Shown one piece after another: positions 1 through 5,791 of a DNA stretch of 5,791 nt. The stretch's first letter is position 1; each line of letters starts with the position of its first letter. This DNA comes from a virus. Its lineage: Duplodnaviria > Heunggongvirae > Uroviricota > Caudoviricetes. Under the pieces are notes generated by a model. It worked only from the letters and a program-made list of their open reading frames with translations. It did not search any database and had not been told where the DNA came from. Both the position numbers and the translations under genes were made by a program. The stretch lies in the IMG/VR virus record IMGVR_UViG_3300013903_000037. One strand, given 5' to 3'.

Positions 1-13
1 AACTCTGTTATTC

Positions 14-134
14 TCTGTAGTCGTGTAATTACTCGAAGAGAGAGCGGCTAAAGCTCAATTACACTCTGCTTTCCTCGTGTAATTTCACTAAGCCTCAATA
101 CAATTCCACTTCCTACTTCTGTAGTCGTGTAATT
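14..134. repeat. Iteron-like repeat array: exact 17-bp direct repeat TCTGTAGTCGTGTAATT at 14-30 and 118-134; third copy of the 10-bp core TCGTGTAATT at 75-84; inverted copy of the 8-bp core (AATTACAC) at 57-64
   Basis: Read directly from the sequence. Direct copies are spaced about 50-54 bp apart in a stretch with no ORF on either strand. Function (origin iterons or operator array) is inference. Confidence 0.7.
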
Positions 135-180
135 GTTTTCGGTGGAAAAGCCAGAGGCGACACCGAAAGAGAATTCTGAT

Positions 181-250
181 CTTATTAATCTTATCTATCT
201 TAGTTAATCTTCTTACTTTATCTTACTTACTTTATCTACTTTATTGTTAA
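181..250. repeat. AT-rich, pyrimidine-rich low-complexity tract with 10-bp periodic tandem units (TCTTACTTTA at 211-220, TCTTACTTAC at 221-230, then TTTATCTACT)
   Basis: Read directly. Strong strand asymmetry (T/C on + strand) and no ORF. Possible DNA-unwinding or bending element next to the iteron array. Confidence 0.55.
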
Positions 251-280
251 TAATAGCTTTATAAGCTCTGTGTAGCTCTC

Positions 281-338
281 TGACGCAAGAAACCGCATTC
301 AGAAAGGGAATCACCTTAGAAAAGTGTTCTTTGCGTCA
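281..338. promoter_or_regulatory. Imperfect inverted repeat TGACGCAAGA (281-290) / TCTTTGCGTCA (328-338), arms about 37 bp apart
   Basis: Read directly. Lies upstream of the first gene. Could be paired half-sites for a DNA-binding protein or a long-range stem. Function unknown. Confidence 0.35.
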
Positions 339-463
339 TAATGTGTTTTATGAAGGATTCAGAGGTGTTTCATAACAGAAATGTATTGAGGCATATTTTT
401 CTAAGCATTACCCAAATATATACGATGACTTTGATATTCCCTTTTAAAAAGTAAGGAGGACTA

Positions 464-742
464 TTGATACAGTATTTAATAAAAAGCAAAGTAGACAGAA
501 TTCAGTGTAATGACACAGGAAAACGCATCTACGAGACACTTGCTTACCTCTATAAAGGAAAGCCAACACCGCTAAAATATAGCGATGTGTTACATCGAGC
601 AGGGTGCTCTGAAGCTGGTTTAAAATTCTGGCTGAAACAGCTATCAAACTTCGGTGTTATAGAGATTAAAGAATTATCTTTCTCTACATTCAATCTCAAA
701 AGACTTTCTAAAGAAATAGAATTCATCTATTCCACTCTCTAA
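464..742 (+). CDS. Small (92 aa) putative winged-helix/HTH DNA-binding protein, TTG start
   Basis: ORF track 464..742. Strong Shine-Dalgarno AAGGAGGA at 453-460, though spacing to the TTG at 464 is short (3-4 nt). No in-frame ATG or GTG exists near the 5' end, so TTG is the only canonical start. The central segment (KYSDVLHRAGCSEAGLKFWLKQLSNFGVIE) has the look of a helix-turn-helix with a wing. Sits next to the repeat array. Confidence 0.5.
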   Translation: MIQYLIKSKVDRIQCNDTGKRIYETLAYLYKGKPTPLKYSDVLHRAGCSEAGLKFWLKQLSNFGVIEIKELSFSTFNLKRLSKEIEFIYSTL

Positions 743-783
743 AATCTCTCTATGTAATTAAAATATAAAAGGAAAACATTATT

Positions 784-900
784 ATGATAGTAGCTATGTA
801 TTGGTTATTGTTCTTTCTCACGTTAGAAGCATATTTCGGGGTGTTTTCCTTTAAAAGAAAAGGAAAAATAAATGGCAAAAAGAAAAAACAACGTTGTTAA
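784..900 (+). CDS. Candidate 38-aa small membrane peptide (MIVAMYWLLFFLTLEAYFGVFSFKRKGKINGKKKKQRC): hydrophobic N-terminal segment plus polybasic tail
   Basis: Hand translation; not in the ORF track because it is short. ATG at 784 preceded by AAAGGA (769-774) at about 9 nt spacing. Overlaps the start of the 872..1282 gene in another frame, so it could also be a chance ORF. Confidence 0.25.
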   Translation: MIVAMYWLLFFLTLEAYFGVFSFKRKGKINGKKKKQRC

Positions 901-1282
901 GAAAATCGGTGATTCAGCTTCTCTTCTAAGTAAACCTAAATCTATTCTAAGACGTAAAGACTTTAAAGAGCTAGTTACGCTCACCAAGCAAAATAGCGCC
1001 CCTGGCGAATGGAAAACAGAGATCATAGAACATTCTCCCTCTGTGCCTTGTGGAGATGAATATATCGCATTACAAGAAATCTTATCTTCAACACCTGGCG
1101 TGTTCTGGAAACCTAAAAAAAGAAAAGAGTATATCGTTGATAGCTCTGATTTACGCAAATACCAGATTTTAGGATTTGAAGACTATAACCACTACGTCGG
1201 TTATCTCGCCACAAATGGCCTAAATAATTTAGTTCCTGAATTCCAAATTTTAGATAATGCTGATCACTATGGAGACTTTTAA
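872..1282 (+). CDS. Hypothetical protein, 136 aa, strongly basic N-terminus (MAKRKNNVVKK...RRKDFK), possibly nucleic-acid binding
   Basis: ORF track. ATG at 872 preceded by a purine-rich AAGGAA (860-865). Stop TAA at 1280-1282 lies one base before the next gene's ATG. Same strand as all other supported genes. Confidence 0.6.
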   Translation: MAKRKNNVVKKIGDSASLLSKPKSILRRKDFKELVTLTKQNSAPGEWKTEIIEHSPSVPCGDEYIALQEILSSTPGVFWKPKKRKEYIVDSSDLRKYQILGFEDYNHYVGYLATNGLNNLVPEFQILDNADHYGDF

Positions 1283-1283
1283 T

Positions 1284-1622
1284 ATGAACAAAAACACATA
1301 TGACACAATTTACTCACTAATTAATTATTATGAGGATGATTACCTCCTGCCTTTAAACCGCGCTGAACTTGAAGCATACAAAGAAAACACGCCAGCGGCA
1401 CTAAATGAGGCGTTTAAACACTGGGATTTAGCTGTGAATGCCTTTGAGCACCTCTCTAAGCGTGTAGAGATGCTCTGTAAGCGTGAAAACGCATACCTGA
1501 CAGCCGATCAGATATGGGAGCTATCAAACTGGATAGAAGATATTGAATCTGATGTTCGCTATGTAGGAGATGGACTTGTTGAACTAGCTCAACGCTTAGG
1601 CGCTACTATCACAGAAGAATAA
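1284..1622 (+). CDS. Hypothetical acidic protein, 112 aa (track ORF 1257..1622 trimmed to the ATG with the best ribosome-binding site)
   Basis: GGAGA at 1271-1275, 8 nt upstream of ATG 1284. The earlier in-frame ATGs at 1257 and 1269 lack a ribosome-binding site and overlap the previous gene. By residue counting the protein has a clear excess of Asp/Glu over Lys/Arg, and its composition suggests mostly helix. Stop TAA at 1620-1622. Confidence 0.6.
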   Translation: MNKNTYDTIYSLINYYEDDYLLPLNRAELEAYKENTPAALNEAFKHWDLAVNAFEHLSKRVEMLCKRENAYLTADQIWELSNWIEDIESDVRYVGDGLVELAQRLGATITEE

Positions 1623-1651
1623 AAAAAGCAACAAAAAAGTTGTAAAATATC

Positions 1652-1680
1652 TTGACATTTCATCTATTGTATGTTAATAT
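1652..1680 (+). promoter_or_regulatory. Near-consensus sigma70-type promoter: -35 TTGACA (1652-1657), 17-bp spacer, extended -10 TGtTAATAT (1672-1680), A/T-rich UP-like tract upstream (1621-1650)
   Basis: Read directly. Predicted transcription start around 1687-1689. Confidence 0.65.
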
Positions 1681-1686
1681 AATTAT

Positions 1687-1910
1687 ATGGGGGTGATTAT
1701 TTTTCCTTTATTGGTTCGATATTAAAAATTCTTCCTGTCATTAAAGGGGAGTAAAATCTCCGCTCCCCGCTTCTCCTCCTTAAGTAAATACTGTGTCATT
1801 ATTACCTCTTTTTTCCTTTGTTATGCATACATCTTGGAGTATGCATAACATAGGGTAATTACATAGGTATGAGTTAATAAAAGGCGGCTTTAAATGCTGC
1901 CTTTTATTTT
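1687..1910 (+). ncRNA. Putative structured non-coding transcript or leader of about 220 nt, running from the predicted start of the 1652-1680 promoter to the intrinsic terminator at 1879-1910
   Basis: No plausible ORF with a ribosome-binding site in this interval. Contains hairpin GGGGAG(1746-1751)/CTCCCC(1763-1768), a single-stranded CU-rich anti-Shine-Dalgarno-like stretch TCCTCCTTA (1774-1782), a perfect 10-bp inverted repeat TTATGCATAC(1821-1830)/GTATGCATAA(1839-1848), and the terminator hairpin. Existence of a discrete RNA is inference. Confidence 0.3.
1879..1910 (+). terminator. Intrinsic (rho-independent) terminator: stem AAAAGGCGGC / GCTGCCTTTT with 7-nt loop, followed by TTTTATTTT
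   Basis: Read directly: 6 G/C-rich pairs including one G-U, extended by A-U pairs, then a T-run. Moderate predicted strength, so it may act as a partial or regulated terminator. Confidence 0.55.
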
Positions 1911-1972
1911 GCCCGTTATGCAACTTAAAAGTTGTATTTCTTACTTTAAACAAGGTAACAAGGTTTATATAA

Positions 1973-2185
1973 ATGTTGTTCTTAAATGATAAAGAGCAAA
2001 TCATCAAGTATAAAGATGAAATGCTGAAAATTAATCCACAAATTACCGAAATGGTAGCTAAATACGCTGGGTGTTCTGTCGAGGAAGTAGAAAGATGTGT
2101 TGAAAAATATTTTTCTCCTTCTTCTCCGTCTACACCTTCCCTTAATGAATTAATCAAATTAAAAGCTAAGGAGATTACTAAATGA
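1973..2185 (+). CDS. Hypothetical protein, 70 aa
   Basis: ORF track. Weak ribosome-binding site (AAGG at about 1961-1964). Stop TGA (2183-2185) overlaps the ATG (2182-2184) of the next gene, which suggests translational coupling. Start codon uncertain; internal ATGs exist. Confidence 0.45.
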   Translation: MLFLNDKEQIIKYKDEMLKINPQITEMVAKYAGCSVEEVERCVEKYFSPSSPSTPSLNELIKLKAKEITK

Positions 2186-2550
2186 TTATTGATTTAGACA
2201 CTCTGTTTCCAGGTCGAAATCGAAAGACTTTCACAGATATTGTAAGTTATTGTACTGATCCGTTTGCCTCTGTAGAAAGCAAGGTTTTTGCTTCTCTTCC
2301 TGCTGATGTTGAGTGCGGCGACTTGATCACCAGCACTGGCGCTAAATATGAATCAGGAGATGATATCTATGTTGTTATGAGTGAATTTGTAACGGCTGGA
2401 GAAAACAAGCCTGTAGATGTGCTACGTAGCAATGCTGGGCTTGTATGCATCAAAGCTGATGCCCTGAATGCTGTAAGTGAAGCAGCAAAAACAGCATTAA
2501 TTAAAAAAGGCTTTCAGCTTGAAGGCTTTAATACGGTTTTCACTTCTTAA
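2182..2550 (+). CDS. Hypothetical protein, 122 aa, immediately upstream of the major capsid gene (positional candidate for a scaffolding, decoration or other head-associated protein)
   Basis: ORF track. Good ribosome-binding site TAAGGAG (2167-2173), 8 nt before ATG 2182. Function is assigned from position only. Confidence 0.6.
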   Translation: MIIDLDTLFPGRNRKTFTDIVSYCTDPFASVESKVFASLPADVECGDLITSTGAKYESGDDIYVVMSEFVTAGENKPVDVLRSNAGLVCIKADALNAVSEAAKTALIKKGFQLEGFNTVFTS

Positions 2551-2568
2551 TAAAAGGAATAATAATAA

Positions 2569-3597
2569 ATGATTCTAGGTAATGATTACGTTGATTTAGC
2601 TCCTTTGTTCTCTGCGCATAGCACTAGAAACTATCTACTGTCTACCCTTGACTTCACTGATCCGGTGGGCGTTAGTTCTCATAAAGTAGCTGTTTCCCAG
2701 CTTGTCGAAAGCAACGAATCTCTCTTTAACAAAGAGACAAGCCGTTTTAGTTCTGAACACAATGTTACTAAGCGTGAACAAGGTAAAGAATGGCTTATCG
2801 AAATCCCGTATTTTCTTCGTGAAGATGTGATCCGTCCTTCTGATGTTCAAGGCAAACGTAAGTCTGGCACTGATTTTCAGGAAACACTCACTGATATTTA
2901 TGCGGAATATATCGCTAAACACCACGTAGCGTATCAGCGCACTAAAGAGAGCGTGCTGGCGGCTTCTTTGTTCTCTGGCAAAACTTACACGCCTAAAACT
3001 GATGATGTGTTAATTGAGTGGAGCAAGCTGTTTAACGTATCACCAATGAAAACCACGGTGAACGCTTCCAGCACGGACACCACGAAGATTTTTAAAGAAT
3101 TTGATCAGATTGCTACTAACATTTTTGAAATCACACAAAGCCAGGCGTCAGCGGTAGAAAGAATTGTTGTTTTCTGTAAACCTGACGCCTTCTCTGCAAT
3201 TCGATTCTCTGCTGGTATGGCAAACGCATTCCAGTATGTAAGCCCACTGGAAGAGGGGAACGTTGTGTATCAGCGTCGTGACCTGCTGCCAGGAGTGACA
3301 GCGTTCACTATTCCAGGAACTAACATCGATGTTGTTAAACTGGTAGATCCGCTACATCTGGCACATATGACCGCAGACGCTGTAGCGGTTCCGAAGTTTG
3401 CTAAAGGCTCTAACGTATATCAGAACATCTACGGGGCTGCTTCCAGCACCTTTGAACTGATTAATGCCGCTCCTGCTGAGGTGTATAGCTATAGCTATGA
3501 ATCTTCTCGTGGTGATGCTGTTAACGTTGTTACAGAGAATAGCCAGATGGTTGTAAACCACGGCGTTGGCTTCTCCGTTCAAATCACTGTTAAATAA
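2569..3597 (+). CDS. Major capsid protein, 342 aa, HK97-fold, apparently of the T7 gp10-like family
   Basis: ORF track. Ribosome-binding site AAAGGA (2553-2558). Recognition is from memory of T7 gp10A (345 aa), not a search: window VVFCKPDAFSAIRF (residues about 200-213) against remembered T7 VFYCDPDSYSAIL (about 206-218); window IEIPYFLREDVIRPSDV against T7 ITIDGLLTADVLIYDIE; similar length and C-terminal character. Followed by a strong terminator, as is typical of highly expressed capsid genes. Confidence 0.7.
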   Translation: MILGNDYVDLAPLFSAHSTRNYLLSTLDFTDPVGVSSHKVAVSQLVESNESLFNKETSRFSSEHNVTKREQGKEWLIEIPYFLREDVIRPSDVQGKRKSGTDFQETLTDIYAEYIAKHHVAYQRTKESVLAASLFSGKTYTPKTDDVLIEWSKLFNVSPMKTTVNASSTDTTKIFKEFDQIATNIFEITQSQASAVERIVVFCKPDAFSAIRFSAGMANAFQYVSPLEEGNVVYQRRDLLPGVTAFTIPGTNIDVVKLVDPLHLAHMTADAVAVPKFAKGSNVYQNIYGAASSTFELINAAPAEVYSYSYESSRGDAVNVVTENSQMVVNHGVGFSVQITVK

Positions 3598-3616
3598 TAT
3601 TTTTAACGTGTAATAG

Positions 3617-3652
3617 AGGCGTGGCGTGTATTCACGCTTCGCCTTTTTTTTT
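3617..3652 (+). terminator. Strong intrinsic terminator: stem AGGCGTGGCGTG / CACGCTTCGCCT (two G/C-rich helices around a small internal loop), loop TATT, followed by a run of 9 T
   Basis: Read directly. Located 20 nt after the capsid stop codon. Confidence 0.75.
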
Positions 3653-3686
3653 ATTTATTTTTTAAATTTTGAGAGGTGATTAAAAT

Positions 3687-3887
3687 ATGGAAGTGATTTT
3701 GAAATCAAAAAATGGTGTACACGTACATTTAGATGCTAATGATTCTAGAGGCTTGTTAAATCTGAAATATCTCTGTTCTCTCCTAGATGTTCCATATGAA
3801 GGAGTAAAAGCCCGTATGTTCAGATTAAACGAGAGTATTGATCAAGCTCTACACCATTTCTTAAGCAAAGAAGGTGGTAAAAAATGA
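3687..3887 (+). CDS. Hypothetical protein, 66 aa
   Basis: ORF track. Ribosome-binding site GAGGTGA (3673-3679), 7 nt before ATG 3687. Stop TGA at 3885-3887, 19 nt before the next gene. Confidence 0.55.
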   Translation: MEVILKSKNGVHVHLDANDSRGLLNLKYLCSLLDVPYEGVKARMFRLNESIDQALHHFLSKEGGKK

Positions 3888-3906
3888 TTAATAAGGGGGA
3901 TTTTAA

Positions 3907-5791
3907 ATGTTAGAAATTAACACTTCTAAAATTAAGAACACAGTTACATTTAGTGTAGATAAAGACAGCTTGAAAAAAGCGAAAGACTCTATTACAGGCT
4001 TAAAGGAATTCGCAGAAAATATCAAGCCAGCTAAATTAAGATTTGATATTGTCACTAAAGGCTATAAGAAAGCACAAAGTGAAGTAGACAAGATTGCTCA
4101 ACAGAAAGCTAAAACAGAAAAGCAGAATCAAAGAGCACAAGCTGCCGCAGCAAGAGCACAGGCAAGGCAACAGGCACAAATAGCAGCACGCAAGGAGAAA
4201 GCAGACTTAAAACTGTTAGACGTTGGATCAAGCATTAGTGCAATGCACCGTCTCTCTGTAGCGGAACAATACAAAGCTATTGCACAGGCTAGAGAAATTG
4301 CCCTCCAATATGAAAGAGGCGCTATTAGTCTGGCACGTATGAATAGCCAGATGAAACGCCTACAACAGCAACAACGTAAGATTAATGGCAACAGAAAAGC
4401 TCAATTAGCCCCCGTTAAGGGAGGAGGATCAGGGAATGCCGCCACTATGGGCGCTCTGTTATTTGGAGGCGCTACGGCTGCTGCTGGCGTGATGGCTGTT
4501 AGTAAAGCGTCGGAGTTTGTTAGTAGCAGTTTCGCTAACGCAGACACCCAAGGGGAGCTAATCCAACGTGCAAAGCTGGGTGGTGTAGACGTTAACCAGA
4601 TGTATAATATTACAGAATGGGCGTATAAAAACGGCGTTGACTCTATGATGGGTGATCAAGGGGCTAGAAAATACCTAGATCAGATGAAAGATGTTAGGGA
4701 ACGTGCCGCAAAATCCTATAGTGAAGCTGAATTGGTGAAAGACAAGAAAACCGGAAAATCAGGGAAATGGAAAGGCGGTGATAACGCTATTAATGAACTT
4801 CTAAACATCGGAGTTATTAACAAAAGCGACCTTAAAAAATTTGCTGATAATCCAGCCGGATTAATTTCTAAGGCTGTTAATGGAATGATGAAAAAAGGGT
4901 TTTCAGATTCTCAAATTGGACAACGTTTAGAAGACCTGGGCGATGATTTGATGCTTACATCAAAATATTGGCAACGTTCCGTTAAAGATGTACAAGAAAG
5001 TATTAACCAGCAAAAAGCCTCTGGAAAATGGCTAACAGAAACACAGCAAGACTCTATTGTTAAATTCAGAGAACTAAACAGACAGCTTTCACAGCTTTCT
5101 GATGCAAGACAAGTAGCATTCGTAGACGGCTTTATGAAATCTCTTGATCCAAAAGTAACGGAAGAGTTTTTGAAAAACCTTTCTAATCTCACTCCGTATT
5201 TTACGAAGCTGGGAGAAGCTACAGGAAGTCTCTTTGAGGCCATTATGAAGATTGTAAACTGGTTTAATCGTAATGATGATAAGACAGATGCTATTCAGAA
5301 AAATTTAGGTGATGCACCGCCATTAAGCAATGACGGAATGAAACAGAATCTTTCTAATCTCGTTCCTGATAAATATAAAGGCGCTGGCACTGCAACAACT
5401 ACACCTGATAATAGTCATTCTCTCTTTAACACGATTAAGGGATTGCTTTTCGATGATAATTCTTCTGTGTCAGATGTAAAAATGTCAGTCAGCGAAGCAC
5501 CGATAACCAATCTCAAACAGGGTGCTTTAAATAATCTTGCAATGACAACTCCGGCTTATAATTTATCTCCTGTGTTTAATCTGAATCCTACATTTGAAGT
5601 GGTAACAGAGGTTCCTCTTACTATTAATTCTGACACATCAAGATTAAGCGATTATGTGGATTTTACAGCGAGAGCAAGTCGGGATAGCTTCTTGAAATCA
5701 TTAACATTAACCAGCTTATCAGGACACGAAGATTATCAGGAAATAAAAGGCGTAAGATATCATCAGACAGATAAAGAACTTGTGCAGAAAG
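3907..5791 (+). CDS. Large virion-type protein, 3'-partial (at least 628 codons, no stop before the window end): N-terminal Q/A/R/K-rich predicted coiled-coil, Gly/Ala-rich hydrophobic glycine-zipper-like segment (residues about 172-199, nt 4420-4503), then a mixed Ser/Asn/Thr-rich region. Candidate internal core, ejection or tape-measure-like protein.
   Basis: Hand translation of frame 1 from ATG 3907 gives an uninterrupted reading frame to the end of the window. Absent from the ORF track, presumably because it has no stop inside the window. Ribosome-binding site AAGGGGGA (3893-3900), 6 nt before the ATG. Composition is typical of phage tape-measure or internal virion proteins. Confidence 0.7.
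   Translation, partial: MLEINTSKIKNTVTFSVDKDSLKKAKDSITGLKEFAENIKPAKLRFDIVTKGYKKAQSEVDKIAQQKAKTEKQNQRAQAAAARAQARQQAQIAARKEKADLKLLDVGSSISAMHRLSVAEQYKAIAQAREIALQYERGAISLARMNSQMKRLQQQQRKINGNRKAQLAPVKGGGSGNAATMGALLFGGATAAAGVMAVSKASEFVSSSFANADTQGELIQRAKLGGVDVNQMYNITEWAYKNGVDSMMGDQGARKYLDQMKDVRERAAKSYSEAELVKDKKTGKSGKWKGGDNAINELLNIGVINKSDLKKFADNPAGLISKAVNGMMKKGFSDSQIGQRLEDLGDDLMLTSKYWQRSVKDVQESINQQKASGKWLTETQQDSIVKFRELNRQLSQLSDARQVAFVDGFMKSLDPKVTEEFLKNLSNLTPYFTKLGEATGSLFEAIMKIVNWFNRNDDKTDAIQKNLGDAPPLSNDGMKQNLSNLVPDKYKGAGTATTTPDNSHSLFNTIKGLLFDDNSSVSDVKMSVSEAPITNLKQGALNNLAMTTPAYNLSPVFNLNPTFEVVTEVPLTINSDTSRLSDYVDFTARASRDSFLKSLTLTSLSGHEDYQEIKGVRYHQTDKELVQK

What the first reader, a model, noticed from the sequence alone, without database searches (positions are those of the whole stretch)
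464..742. TTG-initiated small winged-helix-like protein beside the repeat array
This is the only gene in the window without an ATG start: TTG follows a strong AAGGAGGA at unusually short spacing, a combination often seen in tightly controlled, low-abundance regulators. The sequence looks like a small winged-helix DNA-binding domain, and the gene is adjacent to the iteron-like array, which makes it the obvious candidate binder (repressor, replication or partition accessory).
Basis: inference. Interest (0 to 1): 0.45.

Follow-up and report, generated by a model that had tools for sequence, protein, structure and literature searches.

The report
Small winged-helix gene in satellite-like island
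The 92-codon TTG-started reading frame is a real, conserved gene for a small winged-helix protein of an uncharacterised phage-satellite-like island of E. coli and its relatives, but it lies beside the repeat array only because this copy of the island has a rare deletion, so the repeats are not its obvious target.

Summary
Observation confirmed. The ORF at 464-742 starts with TTG 3 nt after AAGGAGGA and is the only non-ATG gene in the window.

It is a real gene:
- dN/dS is about 0.10 against a diverged E. coli copy.
- Homologues of 92-95 aa at 38-53% identity occur in Klebsiella, Citrobacter, Enterobacter and Buttiauxella, in conserved gene order.
- The start position is fixed, and ATG and TTG alternate there in three lineages.

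AlphaFold2 with a 42-sequence alignment (pLDDT 92) gives a winged helix with extra N- and C-terminal strands. All the best PDB matches are winged-helix domains, mostly DNA-binding (CodY, ArsR, HlyU). No Pfam, NCBIfam, PHROG or PADLOC family matches.

The "binder of the adjacent iterons" idea is weak:
- The window carries a 1.56-kb deletion, whose junction is intact in only 2 of 424 matching complete E. coli genomes. It removed the early promoter and a replication-initiator gene that normally lies directly upstream.
- The true tandem iterons lie outside the window and co-vary with that initiator, not with this protein.

Most likely the protein is a DNA-binding regulator co-expressed with the initiator. 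Its target is unproven. Interest is modest; the surrounding island is more interesting than the gene.

The parts
453..460 (+). Shine-Dalgarno sequence AAGGAGGA, 3 nt upstream of the TTG start
   Evidence: Read directly from the sequence. The equivalent AAGGAGG or GGAGG lies 3-6 nt before the start in all lineages.
464..742 (+). Gene for the 92-aa winged-helix protein (TTG start, TAA stop). Predicted elements: beta-hairpin 2-15, H1 17-29, strand 35-38, H2 39-46, recognition helix H3 50-63, wing 66-81, C-terminal strand 85-90.
   Evidence: ORF list; dN/dS 0.10; homologues in five genera; AF2 pLDDT 92.4; Foldseek matches to CodY, ArsR, HlyU, TubR and MarR winged helices; profile match to ArsR 6j05, E = 0.014.
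382..447 (+). 3' stump of the replication-initiator gene (encodes ...IEAYFSKHYPNIYDDFDIPF*). The rest of the gene is deleted in this copy.
   Evidence: The translations are identical to the C-terminus of the 230-aa protein of L012. That protein matches replication-initiation PHROGs (phrog_270, E = 2.5e-9) and Pfam HTH_36.
379..399 (.). Junction of a 1.56-kb deletion. This 21-bp sequence is present at both ends of the missing segment in full-length islands.
   Evidence: BLAST of the window against L002, L004 and L012: window 1-399 and 379-5726 match places about 1.56 kb apart and overlap by 21 bp. The junction is intact in only 2 of 424 matching genomes.
14..134 (.). Dispersed repeats with core TCGTGTAATT: direct copies at 14-30, 68-84 and 118-134, and an inverted GTGTAATT at 57-64. 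The binder is unknown. They are not the initiator's tandem iterons.
   Evidence: They are conserved in islands with either initiator type and in the thiM-site island L019.
179..245 (.). AT-rich tract of degenerate ATCTTA-type short tandem repeats (periods 9, 14 and 23). Possibly a DNA-unwinding element.
   Evidence: L012 6179-6244 corresponds to window 179-244. The function is inferred.
784..900 (+). Conserved 38-aa ORF with one predicted transmembrane helix, lying between the 92-aa and 136-aa genes. It overlaps the start of the 136-aa gene.
   Evidence: Called in L001 and L016. The ATG, the Shine-Dalgarno sequence and the hydrophobic N-terminus are conserved in Citrobacter and Klebsiella.
1628..1644 (.). 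Palindromic 17-mer GCAAC-N6-GTTGTA, copy 1, centred about 51 bp upstream of the inferred late transcription start. Candidate operator (inference only).
   Evidence: There are two exact copies in the window and none elsewhere in the 20-kb loci. The pair is conserved in most E. coli-type islands sampled.
1920..1936 (.). Palindromic 17-mer GCAAC-N6-GTTGTA, copy 2, about 10 bp after the leader terminator. Candidate operator (inference only).
1652..1910 (+). Late-operon control cassette: near-consensus sigma-70 promoter (TTGACA-17-TAATAT, 1652-1680), a structured leader of about 225 nt, and an intrinsic terminator hairpin plus T-run (1879-1910) ahead of the capsid genes.
   Evidence: Promoter scan; RNA fold z = -4.9 with a 13-bp terminal hairpin; consensus promoters at the same place in Citrobacter and Klebsiella islands.

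Best explanation
The gene encodes a small (92 aa) winged-helix protein that most probably binds DNA sequence-specifically and regulates the island that carries it.

The island is 11-13 kb, integrated and phage-satellite-like. It encodes an integrase, an iteron origin with its initiator, this protein, and then a lambda-E-type major capsid protein, a tape-measure-like protein and a Dit-like protein. It has no terminase or portal gene.

In the intact island the gene is the fourth gene of the early operon: promoter, 62-aa gene, 56-aa gene, initiator, then this gene. Its start lies 0-17 nt after the stop of the gene upstream and follows a strong but closely spaced Shine-Dalgarno sequence. The start codon is frequently TTG. 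The protein is therefore probably made in small, coupled amounts whenever the replication module is expressed.

Shown by the tools: the gene is real, its fold, its position and gene order, and its independence from the initiator/iteron type and from the integrase type.

Inferred: that it binds DNA as a dimer, and that it acts on the conserved part of the island. The most attractive target is the pair of GCAAC-N6-GTTGTA palindromes that bracket the late promoter-leader-terminator cassette. The TCGTGTAATT repeats are the alternative.

In this window the early promoter and the initiator gene are deleted, so this copy is probably a poorly expressed relic.
For: Real gene:
- dN/dS = 0.10.
- Homologues of 92-95 aa at 38-53% identity in Klebsiella, Citrobacter, Enterobacter and Buttiauxella.
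- Fixed start position with ATG/TTG alternation.
- PGAP annotates the ATG-started copies.

Fold:
- AF2 pLDDT 76, rising to 92.4 with the deeper alignment, with canonical H1-S-H2-H3-wing topology.
- All the best Foldseek PDB matches are winged-helix domains, mostly DNA-binding: CodY C-domain, ArsR, HlyU, PefI, BlaI, TubR, MarR, at TM 0.5-0.6.
- BFVD matches are phage HTH, replication-initiator and regulator domains.
- The family profile aligns to the ArsR HTH and wing region, E = 0.014.
- Residues on the exposed face of H3 (50, 51, 54, 58) differ between lineages while the scaffold residues (G52, F55, W56, L60, G64) are fixed. This is the usual pattern for specificity-determining helices.

Context:
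- The gene always lies immediately after the replication gene, which is of three unrelated types (230-aa O/DnaD-like, 305 aa, 482-aa DEAD-like).
- It always lies before the conserved 38-aa, 136-aa and 112-aa genes and the capsid module.
- In Citrobacter the start overlaps the upstream stop (TTGA).
- Candidate operators: two exact 17-bp palindromic sites flank the late control cassette.
Against: - There is no direct evidence of DNA binding.
- Winged helices also serve as protein-protein modules; ScpA and ribosomal eS25 are among the structural matches.
- The protein is not uniformly basic. Calculated pI is 9.1-9.4 in E. coli copies but 5.6-8 in other lineages.
- No basic residue on H3 is invariant, and an exposed F55-W56 pair is unusual for a recognition helix.
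- The palindrome pair is not recognisably conserved in Citrobacter or Klebsiella islands, apart from loosely similar motifs.
- Other small proteins of the operon could be the regulators instead: the 56-aa protein with a weak Arc-like match, and the 136-aa protein with a basic N-terminus.
- Foldseek E-values are only about 1e-3.
- Some copies carry in-frame deletions in H1 or frameshifts, so the gene is dispensable for the host.
Confidence: 0.55

Rival explanations
1. One reading: the protein binds the repeat array at window 1-340 and acts as a replication or partition accessory, or as a repressor at the origin.
For: - The gene is always directly downstream of, and probably translationally coupled to, the replication gene.
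- Weak structural and sequence resemblance to the winged helices of replication initiators and DnaD-like loaders (phrog_7498, E = 0.095).
- The TCGTGTAATT repeats travel with the E. coli-type protein whichever initiator N-domain is present, including in the thiM-site island. Their spacing of about 50-54 bp would place the sites on one face of the helix.
Against: - Adjacency is an artefact of a rare 1.56-kb deletion.
- The tandem 22-23-bp iterons and their AT-rich tract lie outside the window and co-vary with the initiator's N-terminal domain, while this protein stays identical.
- The gene persists next to three unrelated replication proteins.
- No equivalent of the TCGTGTAATT repeats was found in Citrobacter or Klebsiella islands.
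- No partition ATPase is encoded in the island.
Confidence: 0.17
2. The winged helix is a protein-protein adaptor rather than a DNA binder. For example, it could dock onto the initiator, a host replication or RNA-polymerase component, or a helper-phage protein, to time the switch to capsid production or to interfere with the helper.
For: - Near-neutral or acidic pI in most lineages.
- An invariant N16-D17-x-G19-K20 loop and conserved terminal beta-strands (MIQY......EFIYS) lie outside the DNA-reading surface.
- A conserved exposed aromatic pair F55-W56.
- Structural matches include non-DNA-binding winged helices such as ScpA and eS25.
Against: - The best and most numerous structural matches are DNA-binding regulators, and the only sequence-profile match is to ArsR across the HTH and wing.
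- K20, S49 and K79 sit where winged-helix proteins usually contact the DNA backbone. This rests on the model and on general knowledge of the fold.
Confidence: 0.18
3. It is an excisionase (recombination directionality factor) or a small-terminase-like protein that recognises the packaging site.
For: Excisionases and the N-terminal domains of some small terminases are small winged-helix proteins that bind arrays of repeats (general knowledge: lambda Xis, P2 Cox, lambda gpNu1). A satellite also needs both functions from some source.
Against: - The identical 94-aa protein P0045 occurs in islands with two different integrases and attachment sites, L016 and L018.
- The gene is far from the integrase gene.
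- At 92 aa, with no helical oligomerisation domain, it is too small for a small terminase.
- No terminase or Xis family matches in Pfam, PHROGs or NCBIfam.
Confidence: 0.06
4. The ORF is a chance reading frame, not a gene. NCBI's PGAP pipeline leaves it unannotated in the strains identical to the window.
For: - No CDS is annotated at this position in NZ_CP166713.1 or NZ_CP192200.1.
- TTG start and no family match.
Against: - dN/dS = 0.10.
- Length and sequence are conserved down to 38% identity across genera.
- The fold is predicted with high confidence.
- PGAP does annotate the ATG-started alleles.
Confidence: 0.03

Closest known systems
ArsR/SmtB-type and CodY-type winged-helix DNA-binding domains (e.g. 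PDB 6j05 and 6j0e ArsR, 3jth HlyU, 2b0l CodY C-domain)
   Same: Same H1-strand-H2-H3-wing core (TM 0.5-0.6, rmsd 2.2-2.8 A over about 65-70 residues). The HTH and wing sequence pattern S-x3-(L/V)-x3-L-x2-L-x3-G-(V/L)-I aligns to ArsR.
   Different: - No Pfam HTH_5 or any other family match.
- No metal-binding or effector site.
- The dimerising terminal helices of ArsR/SmtB are replaced by an N-terminal beta-hairpin and a C-terminal strand.
- It is encoded in a mobile island next to a replication gene, not next to a resistance operon.
Winged-helix domains of phage and plasmid replication initiators and DnaD-like loaders (PHROG 270, 186 and 7498; Pfam HTH_36, DUF6945)
   Same: Similar fold (BFVD matches at TM 0.64-0.69). 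Direct neighbour of such an initiator in the island.
   Different: - Profile comparison with the neighbouring initiators is not significant (hhalign probability below 2%).
- It does not co-vary with the iterons.
- It is a single domain of 92 aa.
Small regulators of phage satellites, such as AlpA of Gram-negative PICIs or P2 Cox / 186 Apl (from my own knowledge, not tested experimentally here)
   Same: About 70-90 aa, a helix-turn-helix-type fold, encoded in an integrative helper-dependent element, and expected to switch on the element's operons.
   Different: - No match to Phage_AlpA or any excisionase family.
- Not next to the integrase gene.
- Independent of the integrase type.
- The island itself is unlike PICI, cf-PICI, P4 or PLE. 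It has an E-type capsid gene plus tape-measure-like and Dit-like genes, but no terminase, portal or primase-helicase gene.

Membership tests
Winged-helix (wHTH) fold superfamily | Topology H1-strand-H2-H3(recognition helix)-beta-hairpin wing, predicted with confidence | tested here: met
   AF2 with 42 sequences: pLDDT 92.4, pTM 0.83. Elements: H17-29, E35-38, H39-46, H50-63, E66-70, E75-81. The same topology appeared with the shallow alignment.
Winged-helix (wHTH) fold superfamily | Structural superposition on solved winged-helix domains | tested here: met
   The top 50 Foldseek PDB matches are almost all winged-helix domains (CodY, ArsR, HlyU, PefI, BlaI, TubR, MarR, IclR). TM 0.5-0.62, E about 2e-3.
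Winged-helix (wHTH) fold superfamily | Sequence-specific DNA binding | not testable with these tools
   Needs EMSA, footprinting or DAP-seq. Only candidate sites could be listed.
ArsR/SmtB family (Pfam PF01022 HTH_5) | Sequence match above the family threshold | tested here: not met
   No HTH_5 match in Pfam at E <= 1. The family profile against ArsR 6j05 gives only E = 0.014 at 18.9 bits.
ArsR/SmtB family (Pfam PF01022 HTH_5) | Alpha1/alpha5 helical dimer interface and a metal or metalloid sensing site | tested here: not met
   The model has beta-strands at both termini instead of helices. C15 and C48 are not conserved across the family.
Iteron-binding replication initiator or origin accessory | Co-variation of the protein with the iteron sequence and initiator type | tested here: not met
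   L003 and L012 have different iterons (23-bp ACCTAGGAAATGAGTTCCTACCT against 22-bp GGTAGGTCATAGTGAGCTAGGG) and different initiator N-domains (28% identity). Their 92-aa proteins are identical.
Iteron-binding replication initiator or origin accessory | Native adjacency to the repeat array | tested here: not met
   Adjacency results from a 1.56-kb deletion whose junction is intact in 2 of 424 matching genomes.
Excisionase / recombination directionality factor | Linkage to, and co-variation with, a cognate integrase | tested here: not met
   The same protein P0045 occurs with a 551-aa integrase (L016) and with a 398-aa DUF6538-type integrase (L018). No Xis or AlpA family match.
Terminase small subunit | HTH plus oligomerisation domain, about 100-180 aa, next to a large terminase gene; family match | tested here: not met
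   92 aa, single domain. No terminase gene in the island. No PHROG or Pfam terminase match.
Known phage-satellite families (PICI, cf-PICI, P4-like, PLE, PICMI) - for the surrounding island | Hallmark gene sets: alpA plus pri-rep; HK97-type capsid, portal and terminase; psu, delta, sid and alpha; and so on | tested here: inconclusive
   The gene content seen does not fit these sets as I recall them: integrase, small recombinase, O/DnaD-like initiator, E-type capsid, tape-measure-like and Dit-like proteins. SatelliteFinder itself was not run, and six of the ten permitted literature searches found no description of this island.

The most novel reading that the evidence does not exclude
The 92-aa winged-helix protein is the developmental switch of a previously undescribed family of capsid- and tape-measure-encoding satellites of large virulent myophages in Enterobacteriaceae. 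It is made in small amounts by coupled, TTG-limited translation behind the replication initiator. It binds the paired GCAAC-N6-GTTGTA sites and opens the promoter-leader-terminator cassette that gates the satellite's own capsid and tail genes.
Probability: 0.1. Interest if true: 0.6.

Novelty: new member of a known kind. Interest (0 to 1): 0.33.

Why it matters
Taken alone, this is one more small winged-helix protein of unknown target, which is ordinary. Its value lies in the context.

- It is a conserved, unannotated-family gene (no Pfam, PHROG or NCBIfam family). It sits at the hinge between the replication module and the structural module of an island found in about 11% of complete E. coli genomes (624 of 5426) and in Klebsiella, Citrobacter and Enterobacter.
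- The island carries its own E-type capsid, tape-measure-like and Dit-like genes but no terminase or portal gene. Its tape-measure-like protein resembles those of ~150-kb myophages annotated as Phapecoctavirus and Justusliebigvirus.
- If the island is a working satellite, this protein is a prime candidate for its regulator and a handle for experiments.

The check also gives a practical lesson. The apparent gene-beside-iterons arrangement is a deletion scar, and PGAP misses the gene when its start is TTG.

Tried and rejected
- Family searches with the 92-aa protein gave only sub-threshold noise: Pfam (DUF4214), PHROGs (DnaD-like, E = 0.095), NCBIfam and PADLOC.
- tblastn of the E. coli and Klebsiella proteins against 50,697 phage genomes found nothing.
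- A profile search of 1.84 billion representative proteins found only the same narrow family; the 907-aa repetitive match P0038 is spurious.
- hhalign against the neighbouring initiators was not significant.
- Blastn of the upstream region and of the late intergenic region against phages gave no match, so there is no evidence of a shared cos site or of helper promoter mimicry.
- Rfam had nothing above threshold.
- I searched for repeats equivalent to TCGTGTAATT, or for the palindrome pair, in Citrobacter and Klebsiella islands to test co-variation with the recognition helix. The result was inconclusive.
- Inverted copies of ATTACACGA near a small recombinase gene suggested an invertible segment, but the similarity does not extend beyond 9 nt, so I dropped the idea.
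- Six of the ten permitted literature searches for the island found nothing relevant; the Tai paper is unrelated.
- IMG/VR loci are mostly proviruses predicted in isolate genomes, so they are not evidence of packaging.

Full report
**1. What is in the sequence**

The ORF at 464-742 (+ strand, 92 aa) begins with TTG. An in-frame TAA at 452-454 closes the frame upstream and there is no internal ATG. AAGGAGGA lies at 453-460, 3 nt before the TTG. Every other gene called in the window starts with ATG.

**2. Is it a gene?**

Yes.

- The exact protein is encoded on hundreds of E. coli contigs.
- A profile search found full-length relatives of 92-95 aa at 38-53% identity in Klebsiella, Citrobacter, Enterobacter and Buttiauxella.
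- Between the window and a diverged E. coli copy (L019) there are 22 synonymous and 12 non-synonymous differences. That gives pS 0.42, pN 0.063 and dN/dS about 0.10.
- The start position is orthologous everywhere, and the N-terminus M/L-IQY is conserved.

The start codon alternates between ATG and TTG in each of the three lineages:

- E. coli: TTG with the 'IKSK' allele, ATG with the 'VKNQ' allele.
- Citrobacter type: TTG in L013-15, ATG in L037-38.
- 94-aa Klebsiella/Enterobacter type: TTG in ten IMG/VR loci, ATG in L016-18.

The Shine-Dalgarno core ends 3-6 nt before the start, and the stop of the upstream gene lies 0-17 nt away. In Citrobacter the two overlap as TTGA. Low or coupled translation is therefore plausible, but this is an inference.

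PGAP does not annotate the TTG allele. It does annotate ATG alleles: WP_000617145.1, WP_000617146.1 and WP_148123961.1. Some copies are decayed, with in-frame deletions in helix 1, a frameshift in L021, or fusions with the 112-aa gene.

**3. Fold**

With 10 close sequences, AlphaFold2 gave pLDDT 76. With 42 sequences spanning the family it gave pLDDT 92.4 and pTM 0.83.

The predicted elements are:

- beta-hairpin 2-15
- H1 17-29
- strand 35-38
- H2 39-46
- H3 50-63
- wing 66-70 and 75-81
- C-terminal strand 85-90

Foldseek against the PDB returns almost only winged-helix domains. These include the CodY C-domain, ArsR, HlyU, PefI, BlaI, TubR, IclR and MarR, at TM 0.5-0.62 and E about 2e-3. BFVD returns phage HTH, replication-initiator and regulator domains. 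The family profile aligns to ArsR 6j05 across H2, H3 and the wing, with E = 0.014.

No Pfam, PHROG, NCBIfam or PADLOC family matches. The winged-helix reading is thus well supported. Membership of ArsR/SmtB proper is not supported: there is no family match, no terminal dimerisation helices and no conserved sensing site.

**4. Surroundings**

The window is part of an 11-13 kb island. In many E. coli strains it is integrated at the tRNA-Thr gene next to proA (annotated in L012; gene order conserved in the other proA-side loci), and elsewhere in other strains and genera.

The conserved gene order is:

1. a variable replication gene
2. this 92-aa gene
3. a 38-aa membrane peptide
4. a 126-136-aa gene
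5. a 112-119-aa gene
6. a consensus promoter, a structured leader and a terminator
7. a 70-aa gene
8. a 119-122-aa gene
9. a lambda-E-type major capsid gene (PF03864)
10. a 60-66-aa gene
11. a 611-622-aa tape-measure-like gene (phrog_16051)
12. in E. coli, a Dit-like gene

An integrase gene lies at one end or the other. There is no terminase or portal gene. The island is found in 624 of 5426 complete E. coli genomes.

**5. The repeat array and the deletion**

The window differs from full-length islands such as L002, L004 and L012. It lacks 1.56 kb, lost between two copies of a 21-bp sequence (window 379-399). The lost DNA carries:

- a near-consensus promoter (read by eye as ttgaca-N17-taataa in L012 6760-6788)
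- a 62-aa gene
- a 56-aa gene
- nearly all of a 230-aa gene

The product of the 230-aa gene matches replication-initiation PHROGs (phrog_270, E = 2.5e-9) and Pfam HTH_36. Window 382-447 still encodes its last 20 residues. The deletion junction is intact in only 2 of 424 matching complete genomes. The gene's position beside the repeats is therefore secondary.

The repeats in the window are real. They comprise TCGTGTAATT three times plus one inverted copy and an ATCTTA-type AT-rich tract.

The classical tandem iterons lie about 350 bp to the left of the window start: 22 bp repeated 3.4 times, followed by an AT-rich stretch. In L003 both the iterons (a different 23-mer) and the initiator's N-terminal DNA-binding half (28% identity) are swapped. 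The 92-aa protein and the window 1-399 segment stay the same. The iterons therefore belong to the initiator.

The TCGTGTAATT repeats are independent of initiator type, and they co-occur with the E. coli-type 92-aa protein. They remain a possible target, but an unproven one.

**6. Other functions considered**

- **Recombination directionality factor.** Unlikely, because the identical 94-aa protein is found with two different integrases.
- **Small terminase.** Unlikely on size, domain content and the lack of any family match.
- **Protein-protein role.** Cannot be excluded. The pI is near neutral outside E. coli, and conserved features lie outside the DNA-reading face.

**7. Candidate mechanism**

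The gene belongs with the conserved half of the island and is expressed behind the initiator. The late genes are preceded by a near-consensus sigma-70 promoter (1652-1680). This is followed by a structured leader of about 225 nt (z = -4.9) ending in a strong terminator (1879-1910). The equivalent intergenic region of the Citrobacter and Klebsiella islands also contains a consensus-like promoter.

The layout recalls the lambda PR'-tR' arrangement (my own knowledge), so some factor must license the late genes. Two exact copies of the palindromic 17-mer GCAAC-N6-GTTGTA bracket this cassette and occur nowhere else in the loci.

I therefore favour a dimeric DNA-binding regulator acting there (confidence 0.55). 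The fold and context are shown; the target and mode of action are inferred.

**8. Verdict**

The winged-helix reading is supported. The "obvious binder of the adjacent iteron-like array" is not supported.

This is a new, narrowly distributed family within a very well-known fold. Interest in the gene itself is modest. The island around it is the more notable object and appears undescribed in the six literature searches run.

Noticed in passing
window 1-5726, with L001-L023 and L025-L048: The window belongs to an 11-13 kb integrative island. It encodes an E-type major capsid protein, a tape-measure-like protein, a Dit-like protein, an iteron origin and an initiator, but no terminase or portal. 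It is present in 624 of 5426 complete E. coli genomes and in Klebsiella, Citrobacter and Enterobacter. It does not fit the gene sets of PICI, cf-PICI, P4 or PLE as I recall them, and six of the ten permitted literature searches found no description of it.
   Followed up: partly
window 3907-5726 (tape-measure-like gene) and 2569-3597 (capsid gene): The tape-measure-like protein is 32-36% identical to tape-measure proteins of ~150-kb Escherichia and Klebsiella myophages, some annotated as Phapecoctavirus or Justusliebigvirus. The capsid protein's nearest phage relatives are Pseudomonas myophages at 24% identity. This hints that the helper is a large virulent myophage.
   Followed up: partly
window 1652-1910: A near-consensus sigma-70 promoter (TTGACA-17-TAATAT) is followed by a structured RNA of about 225 nt (z = -4.9) and a strong intrinsic terminator, just ahead of the capsid operon. 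Consensus promoters sit at the same place in Citrobacter and Klebsiella islands. The layout resembles lambda PR'/6S RNA/tR', so it may be an antitermination-gated late operon or a small RNA. There is no Rfam match.
   Followed up: partly
window 1628-1644 and 1920-1936: Two exact copies of the palindromic 17-mer GCAAC-N6-GTTGTA bracket the promoter-leader-terminator cassette. There are no other copies in the 20-kb loci, and most E. coli-type islands sampled keep both copies.
   Followed up: partly
window 784-900: A conserved 38-aa ORF (MIVAMYWLLFFLTLEAYFGVFSFKRKGK...) with one hydrophobic helix and its own Shine-Dalgarno sequence overlaps the start of the 136-aa gene. It is conserved in Citrobacter and Klebsiella islands.
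   Followed up: partly
window 5727-5791: The last 65 nt do not belong to the island. All E. coli matches stop at 5726. Window 5721-5791 is 100% identical to an unrelated human-faecal phage scaffold, MT835527.1. The junction shares only a short AGGACA microhomology, so it looks like an assembly chimera. It also falsely extends the tape-measure-like ORF.
   Followed up: yes
L012 5584-5750 (about 350 bp left of the window start); L003 7611-7755: These are the true origin-like arrays: 22-bp GGTAGGTCATAGTGAGCTAGGG repeated 3.4 times (L012), or 23-bp ACCTAGGAAATGAGTTCCTACCT repeated 2.8 times (L003). Each is followed by an AT-rich stretch, and each is paired with a different N-terminal domain of the initiator. 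This is a modular swap of origin specificity.
   Followed up: yes
window 464-742 homologues P0002, P0003, P0007, P0010, P0012, P0015, P0024, P0017, P0018; L021: Many copies carry in-frame deletions of 4-31 residues in helix 1. By eye, the 13-codon deletion lies between short AGGAAA repeats at about 517 and 556. L021 has a frameshift. P0017 and P0018 are fusions with the C-terminus of the 112-aa protein at the shared LSN(F/W) motif. The island is frequently decaying in E. coli.
   Followed up: partly
L012 4392-4931, L013 4773-5351, L016 5663-6280: A small (180-205 aa) recombinase gene lies on the opposite strand, left of the origin region, in many islands. The Pfam hits precomputed for the loci call the 192-205-aa copies (L013, L016) Phage_integrase, and PGAP calls the 179-aa copy in L012 a 'recombinase family protein'. 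In the window-type islands it is replaced by 183-aa and 160-aa genes. Its role is unknown.
   Followed up: no
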